A DNA stretch of 24,000 bases from Oceanospirillum sp. (GCA_047518265.1 JAKZRG010000091.1:1-24000), one strand, 5' to 3'; positions 2 through 5,641 are shown, numbered from the stretch's first letter. The notes: generated from the sequence alone by a model not told the origin. Translations and numbers: made by a program.

Positions 2-466
2 CTCTATCTGAACCGCCATAAAGAGCAATTACAAGAGATCATTCCTGAAGGAGAACCCTACCGTTTGGTCTTCTCTGCCAGTCATTGTCGCGGCGCTATT
101 TTTAAAGATGCCGAAGATCTGATCACACCAGAATTGTCACATCGAATTAATACCATCATGGCTGATCTGCCTGAGTTCTATTACGGTCGGATGGACATCA
201 AGTTTCCTGATATTGAGAGTTTAAAGGCAGGTGAAGGACTAGAGATCGTTGAGATTAATGCCGCAAGCTCGGAATCACTGCATATCTGGGACAGCAATAC
301 TAAGCTGAATGTGGCGGTCTCCTCTCTGCTCTATCAGTACAGAACCCTATTTAAACTAGGCCAGCAAAACCGTAAACGGGGTTATAAGACGCCGGGACTT
401 AAAATGCTTTTAAAGCATTGGCAGAAAGAAAGGAATTTGAAGCAGTTTTATCCAGAAACTGATTAA
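2..466 (+). CDS. ATP-grasp family carboxylate-amine ligase, C-terminal part (5' end lies outside the window)
   Basis: The frame is open from base 2 to the stop at 464-466; the TTG at 65 in the ORF track is not a real start. It contains an ATP-grasp C-terminal Mg/ATP-site pattern, GLEIVEINAASSES (E-x-N), preceded by YGRMDIKF. It sits 60 nt upstream of the next gene on the same strand. Confidence 0.6.
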   Translation, partial: LYLNRHKEQLQEIIPEGEPYRLVFSASHCRGAIFKDAEDLITPELSHRINTIMADLPEFYYGRMDIKFPDIESLKAGEGLEIVEINAASSESLHIWDSNTKLNVAVSSLLYQYRTLFKLGQQNRKRGYKTPGLKMLLKHWQKERNLKQFYPETD

Positions 467-526
467 TGCTACACAGCTAAGCGAAGGTTGTGTCCGTCTT
501 ACTGAATCTCTTTAGGTGGTATTACC

Positions 527-2305
527 GTGCAAGTAGAATTTAATCCATTTCGAGTGCCTTTAAAATCATCCAATCTGTCATCTGTACTGGAAAAAGTACT
601 GGGATTGGGGCCATTAATTCGCGGCTATGATGCTCGCCCCACGCATCAAGGGGAGAATATCAATGGCGCCCCTTTTCTGGAACATACTCTTAATGTTTTA
701 GACGTTGATATCGATGTCGAAAACGAAGAGTACTTAACCGATATTCCTAAAGAAGGTCCCGTTATTTTTGTTGCTAATCACCCTTATGGTGGCCTAGATG
801 GCGTCGCGATGACTCAGTTGTTATTAAAGCATCGCCCCGATTTAAAAGTGATGACCAATAAGATGCTGACTCGCATTCCTGAGCTTAGTGATCTTTTTAT
901 TGGGGTTGATGTGCTATCGGAAAATGCAGCAAAAGAAAATGCCAAGGGGATTCGTTTAATCTGCAAACACCTTAGCCAAGGCGGAGCACTGTTAATTTAT
1001 CCAGCAGGCACAGTTTCAGCTATTAATACTAAGAGTTGGCAGATTGAAGACAGTGAGTGGCATCCCCTCGTAGGTCGTTTGGCCCAGCGCTATAAGGCCA
1101 GTTGTATGCCCTTTTACATTGGTGGTCGTAATAGCAAACTTTTTTATGCCATGGGCTTAATTCACAAACGTTTGCGTACTCTAATGCTGCCAAGAGAGTT
1201 ATCGAATAAATCCGGCCATCGTATTCAGATCCATGCAGGCCCGATAATTACTCCAGATGAATTAAAGCATGCAGAAACGGATGAGGCTGCCACCCACTAC
1301 CTTAAAATGTCCAGCCAACTTATCGGTCGTAATCTGGATCAATCAGATGTACCACAAGCACCAGCAGTGGACAGTCAAACGATTACCAAACAACATAGTC
1401 AAGAAAACCTGTTACAAGACCTTGCGGGACTTGAAGAATATCGCTTATTAAGTAAAAACGGCTTTTCGGTTTACTGCGCGCCTTATGATCGACTCGGCAG
1501 TGTAATGCAGGAAATAGCCCATGCCAGAGAGGTGACCTTTAGAGCCGCTGGTGAAGGTACTGGACTAACATCAGACAGTGACCAGTTTGATCCCCACTAT
1601 CTGCATCTTTTCCTGTGGGATGATAAAGAGCAGCGTCTTGTGGGTGGCTATCGTATCGGGCAGAGCGATAAAATCATTAAAACGCTAGGCATAAAGGCGC
1701 TCTATAGTCGTTCCCTTTATCATTACGATGAATCCTTTATTCAACAGCTAGGCTCTGCGCTAGAGATGGGGCGGTCTTTCGTCACTCCAGAATACCAGCG
1801 TCACCCCCGTGCATTGGATCTGCTATGGCAAGGCATAGGAAACTATGTGGCCCAAAATCCCCAGTACCATACCTTATTTGGTTGCGTAAGTATTTCTCAG
1901 GAACATTCGGAATTGGCTCGTGCTTTTTTATCCGACTCTATGATGGAAGGCTTCCGCGCCAAACAGGAATATCTTAATAAAGTACGTCCTGTGGTGCCTC
2001 TAAAGGTTAAAGGTAAGGTTTGGACAACAGAAGCTCTGGCGTCCTTATCCAATATTGCAGTGATCAATAAGTTATTAGGTCGTTGTGATCCCGGTAAGTC
2101 TATCCCCATTCTTCTGCGACATTATTTGGCGCTGAATGGCCGTTTTGTCTGCTTTACGGTTAATGAGGGTTTTAATAATTCTCTGGATGGTTTGATCCTA
2201 GTCGATCTACGTGAAACGCCTAAAAAATATATCAAACGTTATTTGGGCAAAACGGGAAGCGAACAATTTTTACAACAATGGAACGCACATGAAAGCACTG
2301 ATTGA
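527..2305 (+). CDS. Two-domain acyltransferase: N-terminal PlsC/LPLAT-type domain plus C-terminal OlsB-type GNAT N-acyltransferase domain (OlsF-like amino-lipid synthase)
   Basis: 592 aa with a GTG start preceded by AGGTGG at 513-518. N-terminal motifs are VANHPYGGLDG (aa 82-92, H-x5-D acyltransferase block) and LLIYPAGTVS (FPEGT-like block). The C-terminal half carries LEMGRSFVTPEYQRHPRALDLLWQGI, typical of OlsB/hemolysin-like GNAT N-acyltransferases. Size and domain order match what I recall of OlsF. Confidence 0.75.
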   Translation: MQVEFNPFRVPLKSSNLSSVLEKVLGLGPLIRGYDARPTHQGENINGAPFLEHTLNVLDVDIDVENEEYLTDIPKEGPVIFVANHPYGGLDGVAMTQLLLKHRPDLKVMTNKMLTRIPELSDLFIGVDVLSENAAKENAKGIRLICKHLSQGGALLIYPAGTVSAINTKSWQIEDSEWHPLVGRLAQRYKASCMPFYIGGRNSKLFYAMGLIHKRLRTLMLPRELSNKSGHRIQIHAGPIITPDELKHAETDEAATHYLKMSSQLIGRNLDQSDVPQAPAVDSQTITKQHSQENLLQDLAGLEEYRLLSKNGFSVYCAPYDRLGSVMQEIAHAREVTFRAAGEGTGLTSDSDQFDPHYLHLFLWDDKEQRLVGGYRIGQSDKIIKTLGIKALYSRSLYHYDESFIQQLGSALEMGRSFVTPEYQRHPRALDLLWQGIGNYVAQNPQYHTLFGCVSISQEHSELARAFLSDSMMEGFRAKQEYLNKVRPVVPLKVKGKVWTTEALASLSNIAVINKLLGRCDPGKSIPILLRHYLALNGRFVCFTVNEGFNNSLDGLILVDLRETPKKYIKRYLGKTGSEQFLQQWNAHESTD

Positions 2306-2882
2306 AGCCACTATCGAAACTCTGGAACAAGTAAGATCCTTGATCACTCTATGTGCGGGTGATCAATATGATCAAGCCTCTGTTCACTCAATGTCCGGTG
2401 TGGGTCGTCATGTCCGCCATATTCTGGATCACTTTATTGCAGTCAAAGGTGGGGCTGAAAGTGGCCTCATCGATTACAACGTACGCCAGCGGGATTCAGA
2501 TATTGAATCCAATAGCCAATTGGCACTACAACGCACGGATGAGCTGATTGACTGGTTATCTGTACTTGGACGGGAAGATGTACAGCCTGGATCAAAGATT
2601 CAGGTTGTAACAGAGATTTCTGTTAACCAAACCAAGACTATGGCAATGGAGTCAAACTTAGACCGAGAGCTATGCTATCTCATCAATCACACGGTTCACC
2701 ACTTATCCTATGCTTCCTTGGTCGCTAAACAATTAGGTTTTACCGTGGATGACAGTATTGGACTCGCTCCAGGCACAGCAACCTATTTGCGCCAAACCGC
2801 AGAACAAGAGAGCCATCAGCCAGAGCAAGAAGATCATCGGCTCGCGAGAGAAGGTCATCCGCTTTTAGATCAGGCTGGATAA
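2289..2882 (+). CDS. DinB-fold (DinB/YfiT-like) putative metal-dependent enzyme
   Basis: I place the start at ATG 2289 (MKALIEATIETLEQV...) rather than the track's 2211. This overlaps the upstream stop by 17 nt, which suggests translational coupling. Histidine-rich motifs HVRHILDHF and INHTVHHLSYA fit the DinB-family metal-binding His triad on a four-helix-bundle pattern. Confidence 0.6.
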   Translation: MKALIEATIETLEQVRSLITLCAGDQYDQASVHSMSGVGRHVRHILDHFIAVKGGAESGLIDYNVRQRDSDIESNSQLALQRTDELIDWLSVLGREDVQPGSKIQVVTEISVNQTKTMAMESNLDRELCYLINHTVHHLSYASLVAKQLGFTVDDSIGLAPGTATYLRQTAEQESHQPEQEDHRLAREGHPLLDQAG

Positions 2883-2886
2883 TACC

Positions 2887-3777
2887 ATGTGTACTCTAAC
2901 CGCCTTCCACACAGTAGATGGTTTACTGATCACCATGAATCGAGATGAATCAAGATTAAGATTTGAGGCAGGTCTTAAACGTACTTTTGACTCTATAGAA
3001 CCTACCCAAACAAAGACAGATAACCAAACACTTACAAAACAAGCGGTAGAGTTGGCCTACCCTGTGGATGGTCAAGCTTTCGGCACCTGGATAGGATTAA
3101 ATAATCATGGTGTTGTTATGTGTTTACTCAATCGTTATCAGGATGCACATGTACCTAACGCTCTAACCCGTGGAAGCATTATTCCGACTGCACTAAAACA
3201 TGGTCAGGCCAACGTAATTTTTGAACATTTGGAGCAGCTGGATACCCTTTCATTTAATCCTTTTGATCTGCTTGTTTTTTCGGTTAAAGAATCCCGTCTG
3301 TTTAGCTGGGATGGCACCCATTACAATTTCGAAGCACTTCATCTGGAAACTGGTCGGATGTTTAGCTCTTCCTCTATTGACGCGGAAACAATTCTCCCCC
3401 ATCGACACAAGCTGTTTGATGCTTGGTTGCATCAAAATCAAGTTCGTTCCGATTCAAAATATAGCGATTTAAACAGTCAATCGAAGGTAAATGGAAAGCT
3501 GAATAGCAAACAGACCTGTAGCAATAAGCCCTGTAGCAAGAAGCCTTTATCAGAAACAGTCCTGCAGGGCTTCCATTTACAACAAGAAACGGGGCAAGAA
3601 AGTCGTAGCGTTTTTATGGCTCGGGATAAAAACCACACCAAGAGTATTAGCCAAATTACGCTGAGTAACTTACAGGGATCTCTTGATTATTATTCAGAAG
3701 AAAAGCTCCAGTGTGTTTTAAATGGTCGACAGAAGTTTAGGCCATCCGAGTCCGTGCAACTCTCGTTAATTAACTAA
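2887..3777 (+). CDS. NRDE-family (TANGO2-like) protein with a low-complexity insertion
   Basis: It starts MC (Met-Cys N-terminus conserved in the family) and has the literal NRDE motif at aa 18-21 (TMNRDESR) and GTWIGLNNHGVVMCLLN. The start is 4 nt after the DinB-like stop. A Ser/Lys/Asn-rich insert lies at about aa 185-225. Confidence 0.7.
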   Translation: MCTLTAFHTVDGLLITMNRDESRLRFEAGLKRTFDSIEPTQTKTDNQTLTKQAVELAYPVDGQAFGTWIGLNNHGVVMCLLNRYQDAHVPNALTRGSIIPTALKHGQANVIFEHLEQLDTLSFNPFDLLVFSVKESRLFSWDGTHYNFEALHLETGRMFSSSSIDAETILPHRHKLFDAWLHQNQVRSDSKYSDLNSQSKVNGKLNSKQTCSNKPCSKKPLSETVLQGFHLQQETGQESRSVFMARDKNHTKSISQITLSNLQGSLDYYSEEKLQCVLNGRQKFRPSESVQLSLIN

Positions 3778-3807: not shown

Positions 3808-4257
3808 ATGAATCTGCTCAAACGTACATTGCTGATTTTCACTTGTCTGATTTTTTCTAATACGATCTTGGCCTCGGATGCAATCAATACAGGTTGGTTT
3901 AACAACACCGCTATTAAAGGCTATGACACTGTTGCTTATTTTACCGAAAACAAACCGGTAAAAGGCAGTAAAAAATTTCAGCACACATGGCAAGAAGCTA
4001 CCTGGCACTTTAGCAGTGAGGAACATTTGGCTCTGTTTAAAAATAACCCTGAGAAATATGCGCCGCAATATGGTGGTTACTGTGCTTATGCGGTAGCTCA
4101 AGGTGATTTAGCAGGTATAGATCCCTCTCAATTTACGGTTATGAATGAGAAGCTGTATTTAAACTACAATCGTGATATCCAGCAGAAATGGTTGAAAAAA
4201 CCTGTAGCCTATATCAATCAAGCAGATCAGAATTGGCCCAAAGTGCTTAACAATTAA
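3808..4257 (+). CDS. Secreted YHS-domain protein
   Basis: GAGGT SD 7 nt upstream. Signal peptide MNLLKRTLLIFTCLIFSNTILA. Family-typical blocks are AIKGYDTVAYFTENKPVKGS, WHFSSEEHLALFKNNPEKYAPQYGGYCAY and KLYLNYN. Confidence 0.75.
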   Translation: MNLLKRTLLIFTCLIFSNTILASDAINTGWFNNTAIKGYDTVAYFTENKPVKGSKKFQHTWQEATWHFSSEEHLALFKNNPEKYAPQYGGYCAYAVAQGDLAGIDPSQFTVMNEKLYLNYNRDIQQKWLKKPVAYINQADQNWPKVLNN

Positions 4258-4275: not shown

Positions 4276-4686
4276 ATGATTGTTCAGCGATTATCTAGCC
4301 TAATGATCCCTCTGCTCGCAGGGATCATTTATGGCTCATGGGCCGCCTACAGTAACAGTGAATATGGCTTTGCTATTGCTTTACGAACGGGTATCGCTCA
4401 AGGCAGTTATGCTTTTTTCTCGACTTGGATTGTGACAGAAGCGGCTAAACGCACTTATTTTAAGTTCAGTGAAGACAGTAATAAAAGGAAAGGGATGATC
4501 GCAGGCTTTATTGCTAGCTTTGGACTTATGCTAAGCATTCCACTGATCATTCATACTCTGATTGAAACACCGGATATGTGGCAATCTATGGCGCCGGGAT
4601 TAATTTGGGGTAGTGTCTATATCCTTCTTTATCTTAGTCGATTGAGTCAGCAGGAAGGTGTTCAGGTTACTGAACTCTCTTCCTAA
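4276..4686 (+). CDS. Small integral membrane protein (about 4 TM), unknown function
   Basis: 136-aa ORF, 18 nt after the YHS gene, with four hydrophobic segments. I recognise no motif and the SD is weak. Confidence 0.5.
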   Translation: MIVQRLSSLMIPLLAGIIYGSWAAYSNSEYGFAIALRTGIAQGSYAFFSTWIVTEAAKRTYFKFSEDSNKRKGMIAGFIASFGLMLSIPLIIHTLIETPDMWQSMAPGLIWGSVYILLYLSRLSQQEGVQVTELSS

Positions 4687-4744: not shown

Positions 4745-5146
4745 CTAATGGCTTGAGCTCTTAGCCTGCCAAGGCCAACGATAAGGTTTAAACACACTGG
4801 GGATGGCAAAAACAACATAGCTCAAAGCAAAAGCACCAGACCATTCGCTATTAAAGTAACCGTACTGATTTAAAGAAAACTGTGAGACCAAATACATCAG
4901 AACCCCGGCATAAAACACAATCAAGGCAAGATTACCTTTCCAGCTATCGATTCCCATTACAATAGAGGGTAAAGCCAATATCAAGCCGGTCAAAACCCCG
5001 CCTAGGGTGCTGAGCATATAGGGCAAACACTCTTGTAGCCCCCAAGCTAGATCAAACTGATAAACATCATAAACATACTTAATCACGGACATTAACAAGA
5101 GAAAAAGTGTTAACTGGATAATTTTTTGCAGTAAAACCGTGTTCAT
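4745..5146 (-). CDS. Small integral membrane protein (about 4 TM), unknown function
   Basis: 133-aa ORF with a GAAGGG SD upstream and four hydrophobic segments. It lies 21 nt downstream of the GNAT gene on the same strand. Confidence 0.5.
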   Translation of the reverse strand: MNTVLLQKIIQLTLFLLLMSVIKYVYDVYQFDLAWGLQECLPYMLSTLGGVLTGLILALPSIVMGIDSWKGNLALIVFYAGVLMYLVSQFSLNQYGYFNSEWSGAFALSYVVFAIPSVFKPYRWPWQAKSSSH

Positions 5147-5167: not shown

Positions 5168-5641
5168 TCACCCTATGGATTTGGACAAGCGTAATGAAAA
5201 CTCACCAAAACCTAAGGAGTGATAAAAAGCCAATGCCTCTTTATTAAACGCCATCACATCTAAACGGACATCTATTGCTCCATGTTCCTTAGCAAATCCC
5301 TCAACTGCAGACATGAGTTGTTTTCCAATACCTTTACTTTTCCACGCTTGATTCACGACGATCGTAGCCACAGAACATCTTGGTCGAGAGATAATAAAAG
5401 GAACAGGAACATCAGATGAAACAGAAGCGGAAACGGCACCTACTATATGTCTATCTTGATCTTCTGCCACAAAAACAACAGAAGCTTCCCCTTCAATGAA
5501 CTTCCGCCAATAAGGATCATCCCGTTGGCTATCGTCAGGTTCTAAGAAATCATCAGGAAGATTTTTAAAGTGCTCTTTATTAATCTCATTCGACAATATA
5601 CATATCTCGGCTAAATCCCTTTCTGTCGCTATACGAATCAT
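5168..5641 (-). CDS. GNAT-family N-acetyltransferase
   Basis: ATG with an AAGGA SD 7 nt upstream. GNAT motif A is VVNQAWKSKGIGKQLMSAVEGFAKEHG, and the C-terminal AFNKEALAFYHSLGF is also typical. Confidence 0.75.
   Translation of the reverse strand: MIRIATERDLAEICILSNEINKEHFKNLPDDFLEPDDSQRDDPYWRKFIEGEASVVFVAEDQDRHIVGAVSASVSSDVPVPFIISRPRCSVATIVVNQAWKSKGIGKQLMSAVEGFAKEHGAIDVRLDVMAFNKEALAFYHSLGFGEFSLRLSKSIG

What the first reader, a model, noticed from the sequence alone, without database searches (positions are those of the whole stretch)
2..3777. ATP-grasp ligase, OlsF-like bifunctional acyltransferase, DinB-fold protein and NRDE/TANGO2-like protein form a tightly coupled operon
Seen: four same-strand genes have spacings of 60 nt, -17 nt (overlap 2289-2305) and 4 nt, implying co-transcription and translational coupling. 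The second gene combines a PlsC-type O-acyltransferase block (NHPYGGLDG, YPAGT) with an OlsB-type GNAT N-acyltransferase block (LEMGRSFV.PEYQ). Established knowledge: this domain order matches OlsF of Serratia proteamaculans, which alone makes ornithine lipid. OlsB-type enzymes in other bacteria make glycine, lysine, glutamine or serine-glycine lipids. ATP-grasp enzymes ligate a carboxylate to an amine via an acyl-phosphate. DinB-fold proteins include metal-dependent thiol transferases. NRDE/TANGO2 proteins have an invariant N-terminal Cys, an unresolved biochemical role and reported links to lipid/acyl-CoA and haem handling. Inference: the cluster could build a modified amino-lipid, for example a dipeptide or otherwise extended head group made by the ATP-grasp enzyme. 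The DinB and NRDE proteins might tailor or turn it over. It would also give a rare bacterial genomic context for NRDE function. The operon is cut by the window edge, so upstream partners are unknown.
Basis: partly seen in the sequence, partly recalled or inferred. Interest (0 to 1): 0.6.

Follow-up and report, generated by a model that had tools for sequence, protein, structure and literature searches.

The report
Ornithine-lipid synthase operon with unknown helpers
This is a real six-gene operon built around an ornithine-lipid (phosphorus-free membrane lipid) synthase whose Vibrio cholerae counterpart is already characterised. Its conserved partner genes (an ATP-dependent ligase, a DinB metalloprotein, a distant TANGO2 relative and an exported YHS protein) still have no known role.

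Summary
Four co-directional genes have spacings of 60, -17 and +4 nt, and two more follow: an exported YHS protein and a small membrane protein. The ATP-grasp gene is complete; its first half ends contig C71, downstream of hrpB.

The linkage is strongly conserved. Of 80 loci around relatives (42-67% identity), 70 carry the DinB gene, 66 the ATP-grasp gene and 42 the NRDE gene. 29 are colinear with the window.

The decisive result is that Vibrio cholerae VCA0651-VCA0646 is the same gene set in another order. VCA0646 is an experimentally shown ornithine-lipid synthase. vca0646-0649 is a published HapR-activated operon that the 2024 paper described as of unknown function.

In a tree the window enzyme sits in the clade of both validated V. 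cholerae synthases. It is separate from this genome's second OlsF on contig C64. So plain ornithine lipid is the most likely product; a modified lipid remains unshown.

The NRDE protein is a divergent TANGO2 paralogue. A mainstream copy lies elsewhere in the genome.

I class this as a new member of a known kind. The helper genes remain an open, testable question. This scan has noted the same cluster at least 24 times on other DNA.

The parts
2..466 (+). C-terminal 154 codons of an ATP-grasp carboxylate-amine ligase, annotated 'D-alanine--D-alanine ligase' in public records. The N-terminal 226 codons lie at the end of contig C71 (G000:C71:57851-58528).
   Evidence: G035 homologue residues 9-257 map to the C71 end and residues 260-413 to C91:2-463; the joint was read. 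The AF2 model of the closest full-length homologue has pLDDT 92.3. Foldseek best hits are the cyanophycin synthetase G domain, GshF and Ddl. The profile hits CphA2 8fxh at 1.5e-8. R284, D286, E305 and N307 are invariant; their assignment as ATP/Mg2+ ligands is my reading of the ATP-grasp fold.
527..2305 (+). OlsF-type bifunctional acyltransferase: an N-terminal O-acyltransferase domain and a C-terminal OlsB-type GNAT N-acyltransferase domain. Probable ornithine-lipid synthase of the VCA0646/VC0489 clade.
   Evidence: Pfam PF19576, PF01553 and PF13444. NF052615 scores 410 bits, below the 620 cut-off, as in all 151 Vibrio genomes searched. Identity is 40% to VCA0646 and 42% to VC0489. It shares a clade with both, SH-aLRT 100.
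2289..2882 (+). DinB/YfiT-fold four-helix-bundle protein with conserved His clusters, probably metal-binding. It overlaps the OlsF stop by 17 nt.
   Evidence: PF05163 at 23.2 bits. AF2 pLDDT 93.9. All top Foldseek hits are DinB/YfiT-like proteins, TM 0.5-0.59. Invariant residues are H41, R43, H44, Y63, R66, R68, E73, R126, E127, H134, H137 and H138. Present in 70 of 80 related loci.
2887..3777 (+). Divergent TANGO2/NRDE-superfamily protein, a putative Cys-N-terminal-nucleophile enzyme. It carries an insert of about 40 low-complexity residues.
   Evidence: PF05742 at 43 bits. The profile of 38 cluster-type homologues hits human TANGO2 8sv7 at 5.7e-10, over the N-terminal half only. C2 is nearly invariant and R19, D20 and E21 are invariant. 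Present in 42 of 80 loci.
3808..4257 (+). Exported YHS-domain protein, the homologue of V. cholerae VCA0647.
   Evidence: NF041384 at 167.7 bits and PF04945. A hydrophobic N-terminus spans residues 8-26. 50% identical to the YHS gene of the V. cholerae locus. Present in 26 of 80 loci.
4276..4686 (+). Small membrane protein with no family match. It is the last gene of the unit; the next gene converges.
   Evidence: No Pfam or NCBIfam hit. A hydrophobic segment spans residues 73-97. Homologues occur in 25 of 80 loci, always within the cluster.

Best explanation
The window starts inside a six-gene operon: ATP-grasp ligase, OlsF-type synthase, DinB, a TANGO2-like NRDE protein, an exported YHS protein and a small membrane protein. 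It is the counterpart, in another gene order, of Vibrio cholerae VCA0651-VCA0646.

Shown by homology to tested enzymes: the OlsF-type enzyme most likely makes ornithine lipid. Its C-terminal GNAT domain N-acylates ornithine with a 3-hydroxy fatty acid. Its N-terminal domain then O-acylates that hydroxyl.

Inferred only: the helper genes act on this lipid or on the envelope state that calls for it. My preferred reading has three parts.
- The ATP-grasp enzyme resembles the cyanophycin synthetase G domain, which extends a C-terminal carboxylate. It activates the free carboxylate of the (lyso-)aminolipid head group and joins an amine to it, giving a minor or conditional derivative.
- The NRDE protein, with its N-terminal Cys, cleaves or transfers a fatty-acyl amide bond. 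This would serve turnover or editing.
- The DinB protein contributes a metal-dependent step of unknown chemistry.

In this genome the operon is an accessory second ornithine-lipid system. A different-clade OlsF sits on contig C64.

The confidence figure refers to the operon and its ornithine-lipid synthase. The helper-gene mechanism alone I rate at about 0.3.
For: Operon anatomy.

Conservation, from 80 loci in at least 16 named families:
- DinB in 70, ATP-grasp in 66, NRDE in 42, YHS in 26 and the membrane protein in 25.
- 29 loci are colinear in the order A-O-D-N.
- The median O>D distance is -17 nt and the median D>N distance is +1 nt.
- Other gene orders occur: DoxX(-)/D/N/O, and V-A-D-N-Y-O in Vibrio.

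Link to V. cholerae:
- Published primers for VCA0646 and VC0489 match loci L103 and L104.
- L103 reads DedA, ATP-grasp, DinB, NRDE, YHS, OlsF.
- VCA0646 and VC0489 both make ornithine lipid in E. coli (PMC12186959).
- The window enzyme falls in their clade.

Expression of the V. cholerae cluster:
- RNA-Seq shows vca0646-0649 behave as one HapR-activated operon (PMC11573629).
- VCA0650-1, VCA0648-9 and VCA0646-7 all fall together in an iurV mutant (PMC7600106).

Helper roles:
- ATP-grasp fold and relatives.
- A distant ATP-grasp homologue directly follows two stand-alone OlsB-type GNAT genes in L097.
- An ATP-dependent transfer of taurine to the ornithine-lipid carboxylate is known biochemically, with its gene unknown (review PMC12971839).
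- TANGO2 is proposed to be a Cys-Ntn hydrolase for fatty-acid derivatives above 500 Da (PMC13044924).
Against: - No product other than plain ornithine lipid was reported for the V. cholerae locus. [14C]ornithine labelling showed only OL and the origin.
- There, vca0648 (NRDE) and vca0649 (DinB) were dispensable for the only phenotype known, cell death on overexpression.
- DinB/ATP-grasp pairs also occur without an OlsF gene within the roughly 18 kb fetched (L098, L099).
- 11 loci have D-N-O and no ATP-grasp gene nearby. The module is therefore not obligatorily one pathway.
- The N-terminal helix of the ATP-grasp protein does not reach a transmembrane hydropathy threshold, so membrane association is unproven.
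Confidence: 0.75

Rival explanations
1. This is a plain ornithine-lipid operon. The helpers do not change the head group. They handle the lipid or its precursors instead, through turnover by the NRDE amidase when conditions change, through export or flipping (DedA in Vibrio-type clusters, the small membrane protein here), or through periplasmic sensing by the YHS protein.
For: Only plain OL was seen in V. cholerae. A DedA/VTT gene lies directly upstream of the ATP-grasp gene in G035 and in five of the six cluster-type Vibrio loci examined. Overexpressing OlsF with YHS, and without the other genes, gives the known phenotype.
Against: This leaves a catalytically intact, highly conserved peptide-bond-type ATP-grasp ligase (66 of 80 loci) without a reaction. 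The ligase also sits beside stand-alone OlsB-type GNATs in a distant lineage.
Confidence: 0.3
2. The DinB, NRDE, ATP-grasp, YHS and DoxX genes form a separate envelope redox or metal stress module, possibly thiol-related. It is merely co-regulated and co-inherited with ornithine-lipid synthesis and does not act on the lipid.
For: In the V. cholerae iurV mutant the six genes fall together with msrB, thioredoxin 2, glutaredoxin and copper genes. The YHS family is described as a (seleno)protein family. DoxX/MauE-type proteins recur in the clusters. DinB-fold relatives include thiol transferases. DinB/ATP-grasp pairs occur next to TauE or DoxX with no OlsF gene in the fetched region.
Against: Tight translational coupling of OlsF and DinB (overlaps in most loci) is hard to explain by co-regulation alone. 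So is retention of the linkage through several gene-order rearrangements.
Confidence: 0.15
3. The ATP-grasp enzyme acts before acylation. It makes a dipeptide or modified amino acid that this OlsF paralogue then acylates, so the product is a non-ornithine lipid.
For: OlsB/OlsF relatives make glycine, glutamine and lysine lipids. Ser-Gly and Orn-Ser-Gly head groups exist, with unknown enzymes. The genome already has another OlsF, which leaves room for a second specificity.
Against: The window enzyme lies in the clade of two tested ornithine-lipid synthases, and VCA0646 from the same kind of cluster needs no partner to make OL in E. coli. 11 clusters lack the ATP-grasp gene.
Confidence: 0.08
4. 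The adjacency is chance or an assembly artefact, and the ATP-grasp gene belongs to an unrelated upstream unit.
For: The contig breaks inside the ATP-grasp gene.
Against: Both halves align end to end with full-length homologues, with about two residues missing. The linkage recurs in more than 90 genomes. The upstream gene is hrpB, after a gap of about 135 nt.
Confidence: 0.01

Closest known systems
Vibrio cholerae VCA0651-VCA0646 cluster. This is the vca0646-0649 operon of Mashruwala & Bassler 2024 (PMC11573629), with VCA0646 being the low-salinity ornithine-lipid synthase of Vences-Guzman et al. 2025 (PMC12186959).
   Same: It has the same families: ATP-grasp (43-45% identity), DinB (37%), NRDE (25%), YHS (50%) and OlsF (40%), all co-directional and closely spaced. 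The OlsF proteins share one clade.
   Different: The gene order is V-A-D-N-Y-O in Vibrio and A-O-D-N-Y-T here. The window has no DedA/VTT gene and has a small unclassified membrane protein instead. HapR, low-salt and IurV-linked regulation are known only for V. cholerae. The papers I read assign no function to the VCA0647-VCA0651 products and do not discuss VCA0650-VCA0651; the transcriptome table of PMC7600106 lists those two under an annotation label only.
OlsF of the NF052615 type. Serratia proteamaculans OlsF is the founding member; this genome's copy is at G000:C64:23325-24923.
   Same: The same two-domain architecture and, by inference, the same reaction.
   Different: Only about 30% identity and a deep, fully supported split in the tree. 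The copies of this type examined here show none of the helper genes within the DNA fetched. That was about 8 kb on each side in this genome (L012) and only about 1.5 kb on each side in eight relatives (L003-L010).
Cyanophycin synthetase G domain, GshF and D-Ala-D-Ala ligase (ATP-grasp peptide-bond ligases)
   Same: The fold and the conserved residues I read as nucleotide/Mg2+ ligands. These enzymes form an acyl-phosphate on a carboxylate and then let an amine attack.
   Different: Only 11-21% identity. The window protein has an extra conserved N-terminal aromatic-rich helix (FFEFWPxWLMYxPV). Its substrate is unknown. The public name 'D-alanine--D-alanine ligase' is not supported by any family match.
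Human TANGO2 (PDB 8sv7) and bacterial HtpA-type NRDE proteins
   Same: Cys2, the NRDE motif and N-terminal-half homology (E 5.7e-10).
   Different: A divergent subfamily scoring 42-56 bits against PF05742, where mainstream gammaproteobacterial copies score 190-270 bits. This genome also carries a mainstream copy at C2:90581-91318.

Membership tests
OlsF bifunctional ornithine-lipid synthase | N-terminal O-acyltransferase domain (PF19576/PF01553 type) with the HPxGGxE/DG block | tested here: met
   PF19576 at 55 bits and PF01553 at 34 bits. N84, H85, P86, G88, G89 and G92 are invariant in 21 relatives.
OlsF bifunctional ornithine-lipid synthase | C-terminal OlsB-type GNAT domain (PF13444) | tested here: met
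   PF13444 at 74.8 bits, residues 334-435.
OlsF bifunctional ornithine-lipid synthase | Score over the NCBIfam equivalog cut-off (NF052615, 620 bits) | tested here: not met
   410 bits. The cut-off is too strict to decide the matter: none of 151 Vibrio genomes reaches it (the full-length matches score about 370-442 bits), and that set includes the V. cholerae genome whose two enzymes are experimentally validated.
OlsF bifunctional ornithine-lipid synthase | Falls in a clade with experimentally validated ornithine-lipid synthases | tested here: met
   A 93-row clade with VCA0646 and VC0489, SH-aLRT 100.
OlsF bifunctional ornithine-lipid synthase | Produces ornithine lipid | not testable with these tools
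   Needs expression and lipid analysis.
vca0646-0649-type operon (V. cholerae) | OlsF, YHS, NRDE and DinB genes co-directional in one tight unit, with the ATP-grasp gene adjacent | tested here: met
vca0646-0649-type operon (V. cholerae) | DedA/VTT gene upstream of the ATP-grasp gene | tested here: not met
   Upstream is hrpB. No VTT hit appears in any of the 80 window-type loci.
vca0646-0649-type operon (V. cholerae) | Co-transcription, and control by quorum sensing or low salinity | not testable with these tools
TANGO2/NRDE (PF05742) | Pfam match over the gathering score, N-terminal Cys2 and the NRDE motif | tested here: met
   43 bits against 22.6. C2, N18, R19, D20 and E21 are present. The profile hit to 8sv7 covers only the N-terminal half.
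DinB/YfiT fold | Four-helix bundle with conserved His residues | tested here: met
   Foldseek probability 1.0 to YizA, YjoA, YfiT and DR0053. H41, H44, H134, H137 and H138 are invariant and H48 is nearly invariant. Which residues bind metal was not determined.
D-alanine--D-alanine ligase (the public annotation of the ATP-grasp gene) | Match to a Ddl family model | tested here: not met
   No Ddl equivalog match. The best NCBIfam hits are cyanophycin synthetase at 15-32 bits. Ddl structures align at 11-17% identity.

The most novel reading that the evidence does not exclude
The DinB / TANGO2-like / ATP-grasp genes form an undescribed aminolipid head-group remodelling module. The ATP-grasp enzyme would be the kind of ATP-dependent ligase long known biochemically for taurine transfer onto the ornithine-lipid carboxylate, a reaction whose gene is unknown. 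The TANGO2-like Cys-Ntn protein would cleave or transfer fatty-acyl amide bonds of aminolipids. That would give the first natural substrate class for a member of the TANGO2 superfamily.
Probability: 0.2. Interest if true: 0.8.

Novelty: new member of a known kind. Interest (0 to 1): 0.45.

Why it matters
Ornithine lipids let bacteria save phosphate and resist stress and polymyxin.

The V. cholerae version of this operon is quorum-sensing controlled and causes cell death when overexpressed, yet only one of its six genes has a known function. The same gene set is conserved in shuffled order across many marine Gammaproteobacteria. That argues the helper genes act together with the lipid synthase. 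It also gives non-pathogenic hosts in which to find out what they do.

Three practical points follow for annotation and the literature:
- The NCBIfam OlsF cut-off misses a whole clade that includes two validated enzymes.
- The ATP-grasp gene is widely mislabelled as D-Ala-D-Ala ligase.
- Carrying two OlsF genes is not unique to V. cholerae.

A lipid context for a TANGO2-superfamily protein fits the current Cys-Ntn hydrolase hypothesis for the human disease protein. The link is only distant, because the cluster protein is a divergent paralogue.

Tried and rejected
1. I first took the sub-cut-off NF052615 score (410 against 620), together with the second, 850-bit OlsF in the genome, as evidence for a different lipid. 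I dropped this after all 151 Vibrio genomes scored below the cut-off, including the V. cholerae genome with the validated enzymes.
2. Single-sequence searches of the PDB with the NRDE and DinB proteins found nothing. Only the profile search (NRDE) and fold search (DinB) worked. The DinB profile gave just a weak 3di5 hit.
3. The promoter and terminator scan gave no useful internal signals. I saw no clear Pho box by eye upstream of the ATP-grasp gene; this was not a formal test.
4. The hydropathy scan did not confirm a true transmembrane helix in the ATP-grasp protein.
5. Composition gives no sign of recent transfer. The cluster is 43.1% G+C and the genome 44.3%. Even so, the ATP-grasp family was not found in any of 24 same-family genomes searched.
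The first genome search failed.
7. The DedA::ATP-grasp fusions reported by earlier notes of this scan could not be checked. The 120 listed homologues are all unfused proteins of about 370 aa.
8. I could not look for the ATP-grasp family in Gluconobacter cerinus, the cerilipin producer.

Full report
**What is in the window.** The window is the first 24 kb of contig C91 of a 6.64-Mb, 114-contig genome. Six ORFs lie on the + strand with short spacers:
- 2-466, the C-terminal 154 codons of an ATP-grasp protein.
- 527-2305, an OlsF-like protein of 592 aa.
- 2289-2882, a DinB-like protein.
- 2887-3777, an NRDE/TANGO2-like protein starting M-C-T.
- 3808-4257, a YHS-domain protein with a signal-peptide-like N-terminus.
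- 4276-4686, a small membrane protein.

The spacings are 60, -17, +4, +30 and +18 nt. The next gene (4745-5146) converges on the unit. The ATG at 2289, which creates the 17-nt overlap, is supported by 44 homologues that begin at the same alignment column. A consensus scan found no internal sigma-70-like promoter on the + strand and no credible terminator before 4300.

**The cut gene is complete.** I used a full-length homologue from a same-order genome (G035) as a probe. It places the missing N-terminal part at the very end of contig C71. Residues 9-257 map to C71:57836-58528 and residues 260-413 to C91:2-463, so only about two codons are missing at the joint. Upstream on C71 is hrpB (TIGR01970, 730 bits), which ends about 135 nt before the likely ATP-grasp start codon. 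The ATP-grasp gene is therefore the first gene of this unit, not the tail of another operon.

**The linkage is conserved.** A scan of one genome per species with an alignment of relatives of the OlsF-like protein returned 80 loci at 42-67% identity. They come mostly from marine Gammaproteobacteria of at least 16 named families, plus a few other MAGs. Mapping the window's proteins onto them gave these counts:

| Gene | Loci with it (of 80) |
|---|---|
| DinB | 70 |
| ATP-grasp | 66 |
| NRDE | 42 |
| YHS | 26 |
| Small membrane protein | 25 |

29 loci are colinear in the order A-O-D-N. The median OlsF-to-DinB distance is -17 nt and the median DinB-to-NRDE distance is +1 nt, using my approximate start calls. 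Other gene orders occur:
- DoxX(-)/DinB/NRDE/OlsF without an ATP-grasp gene, in 11 loci.
- DedA/ATP-grasp/YHS/DoxX/OlsF, with DinB on the opposite strand, in G035.

Retention of the same families through rearrangements is stronger evidence of a functional link than colinearity alone.

**The OlsF-like gene: a false lead, then the key result.** The protein scores 410 bits against the NCBIfam OlsF equivalog, whose cut-off is 620. The genome has a second OlsF on contig C64 that scores 850 bits. All 11 same-genus genomes searched have only the C64 type. None of 24 same-family genomes has the ATP-grasp family. So the operon is accessory here, although its G+C content is not atypical.

I first read this as a sign of a different product. 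A control search of 151 Vibrio genomes removed that argument. No OlsF homologue there reaches the cut-off, and the full-length matches score about 370-442 bits. Published primers for VC0489 and VCA0646 (PMC12186959) match two loci of one of those genomes. That genome is therefore V. cholerae, whose two enzymes both make ornithine lipid in E. coli.

More importantly, the V. cholerae chromosome-2 locus reads DedA/VTT, ATP-grasp, DinB, NRDE, YHS, OlsF(VCA0646), all on one strand. It is the same cluster in another order. The phosphate-regulated copy VC0489 has no such neighbours.

A maximum-likelihood tree of 102 proteins puts the window enzyme in a 93-row clade (SH-aLRT 100) with VCA0646 and VC0489. 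A long branch separates this clade from the C64-type clade. The stand-alone VC0489 type nests among cluster-associated Vibrio genes. It looks like a duplicate that left the cluster; the tree is rooted only at its midpoint, so the direction is not shown.

**What the literature knows about the V. cholerae cluster.**
- Vences-Guzman et al. 2025 call VCA0649-VCA0646 a putative four-gene operon. They show a low-salt-induced promoter just upstream of VCA0646 and loss of OL and of polymyxin tolerance in its mutant. With [14C]ornithine they see label only in OL and at the origin.
- Mashruwala & Bassler 2024 found by RNA-Seq that vca0646-0649 is one HapR-activated operon 'of unknown function'. Overexpressing vca0646 with vca0647 (OlsF and YHS in my assignment) causes T6SS-independent cell death. 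vca0648 and vca0649 (NRDE and DinB) are dispensable for that effect.
- In an iurV-deletion transcriptome, VCA0650-1, VCA0648-9 and VCA0646-7 are all among the 21 down-regulated genes, alongside msrB, thioredoxin 2, glutaredoxin and copper genes. The ATP-grasp and DedA genes are thus co-regulated with the rest.
- None of the papers I could search assigns a role to the ATP-grasp, DinB, NRDE or YHS genes. Two recent aminolipid reviews do not mention them.
- The 2026 review does record that taurine transfer to the ornithine-lipid carboxylate is ATP-dependent with the gene unknown. It also records that Ser-Gly and Orn-Ser-Gly head groups exist.

**The helper proteins.**
- *ATP-grasp.* An AF2 model of the closest full-length homologue, built with a 47-sequence alignment, has pLDDT 92.3. 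Its best structural and profile matches are the G domain of cyanophycin synthetases, GshF and Ddl. All of these join an amine to an activated carboxylate. R284, D286, E305 and N307 are invariant, and I read them as the nucleotide/Mg2+ ligands. Public records call the protein D-alanine--D-alanine ligase, which no family model supports. A conserved N-terminal aromatic-rich helix is present but does not reach a transmembrane hydropathy threshold.
- *ATP-grasp family distribution.* In an even sample of 400 genomes of the class, the family occurs in 10 including the window's own genome. The two strong hits are A-O-D-N clusters. More distant members lie next to DinB and DoxX, next to DinB and TauE, or directly after two stand-alone OlsB-type GNAT genes.
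- *DinB.* AF2 gives pLDDT 93.9, and every top Foldseek hit is a DinB/YfiT-type metal-binding bundle. Several His and Arg residues are invariant.
- *NRDE.* The profile of 38 cluster-type proteins hits human TANGO2 (8sv7) at 5.7e-10, over the N-terminal half only. Cys2 and the NRDE motif are conserved. This is a divergent subfamily. PF05742 occurs in 103 of 400 gammaproteobacterial genomes, mostly at 190-270 bits. Copies confirmed to lie in a cluster score 42-56 bits, and this genome has a mainstream copy at C2:90581-91318. A 2026 structure paper proposes that TANGO2 is a Cys-Ntn hydrolase for fatty-acid derivatives larger than 500 Da. Ornithine lipid would fit that description, but this is analogy only.

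**Interpretation.**
- Shown: an operon-like, widely conserved gene set.
- Shown by homology to tested enzymes: an ornithine-lipid synthase.
- Inferred: the helpers act on the lipid. My preferred model is carboxylate-amine ligation on the head group by the ATP-grasp enzyme and amide cleavage or transfer by the NRDE protein. I give this model about 0.3.
- The main rivals are handling or turnover of plain OL, and a co-regulated envelope redox or metal module.

**Relation to earlier notes of this scan.** After reaching the V. cholerae link independently, I found that this scan has at least 24 earlier findings of the same cluster in other genomes, with the same closest-known system. They also report DedA::ATP-grasp fusions in other phyla, which I could not test.

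**Verdict.** The core enzyme is a new member of a known kind. The helper genes remain an open question that is directly testable in non-pathogenic marine hosts or by expression in E. coli.

Noticed in passing
G000:C64:23325-24923 (-), = L012:8317-10053: The genome carries a second OlsF of the other deep clade (NF052615, 850 bits). Agarivorans, Psychromonas and Sessilibacter genomes likewise carry one gene of each clade. Two OlsF homologues in one genome is therefore not unique to V. cholerae, as a 2026 review states.
   Followed up: partly
G000:C2:90581-91318 (+): A mainstream TANGO2/NRDE gene (PF05742, 213.9 bits) lies elsewhere in the genome. It is too divergent from the window's NRDE protein to be found by tblastn at E 1e-3.
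   Followed up: no
NF052615 against 151 Vibrio genomes: The NCBIfam OlsF equivalog cut-off of 620 bits excludes every Vibrio OlsF homologue, including the two experimentally validated V. cholerae enzymes. The whole VCA0646/VC0489 clade will be named only 'lysophospholipid acyltransferase family protein' or 'hemolysin'.
   Followed up: yes
window 2-466, and P0123-P0224: The cluster's ATP-grasp protein is named 'D-alanine--D-alanine ligase' in many NCBI and UniRef records. No Ddl family model matches it, so this is probably an over-annotation.
   Followed up: partly
L097:8165-10837 (-): In a 2.3-Mb same-class genome, two tandem stand-alone OlsB-type GNAT genes (PF13444) directly precede a distant ATP-grasp homologue by overlap. 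Phosphomannomutase-like and amino-acid-kinase genes lie downstream.
   Followed up: partly
window 3440-3570 (NRDE residues about 185-228): The window's NRDE protein carries an insert of about 40 Ser/Lys/Asn/Gln-rich residues that is absent from all 37 aligned homologues.
   Followed up: partly
G000:C71 end / C91 start: The assembly breaks inside the ATP-grasp gene with only about two codons missing and no repeat evident at the ends. The reason for the break is unknown.
   Followed up: partly
window 5168-5641 (-): A stand-alone GNAT acetyltransferase (PF00583) lies on the opposite strand, about 480 nt beyond the operon's end, behind the converging 4745-5146 gene. I did not examine whether it is linked to the cluster elsewhere.
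   Followed up: no
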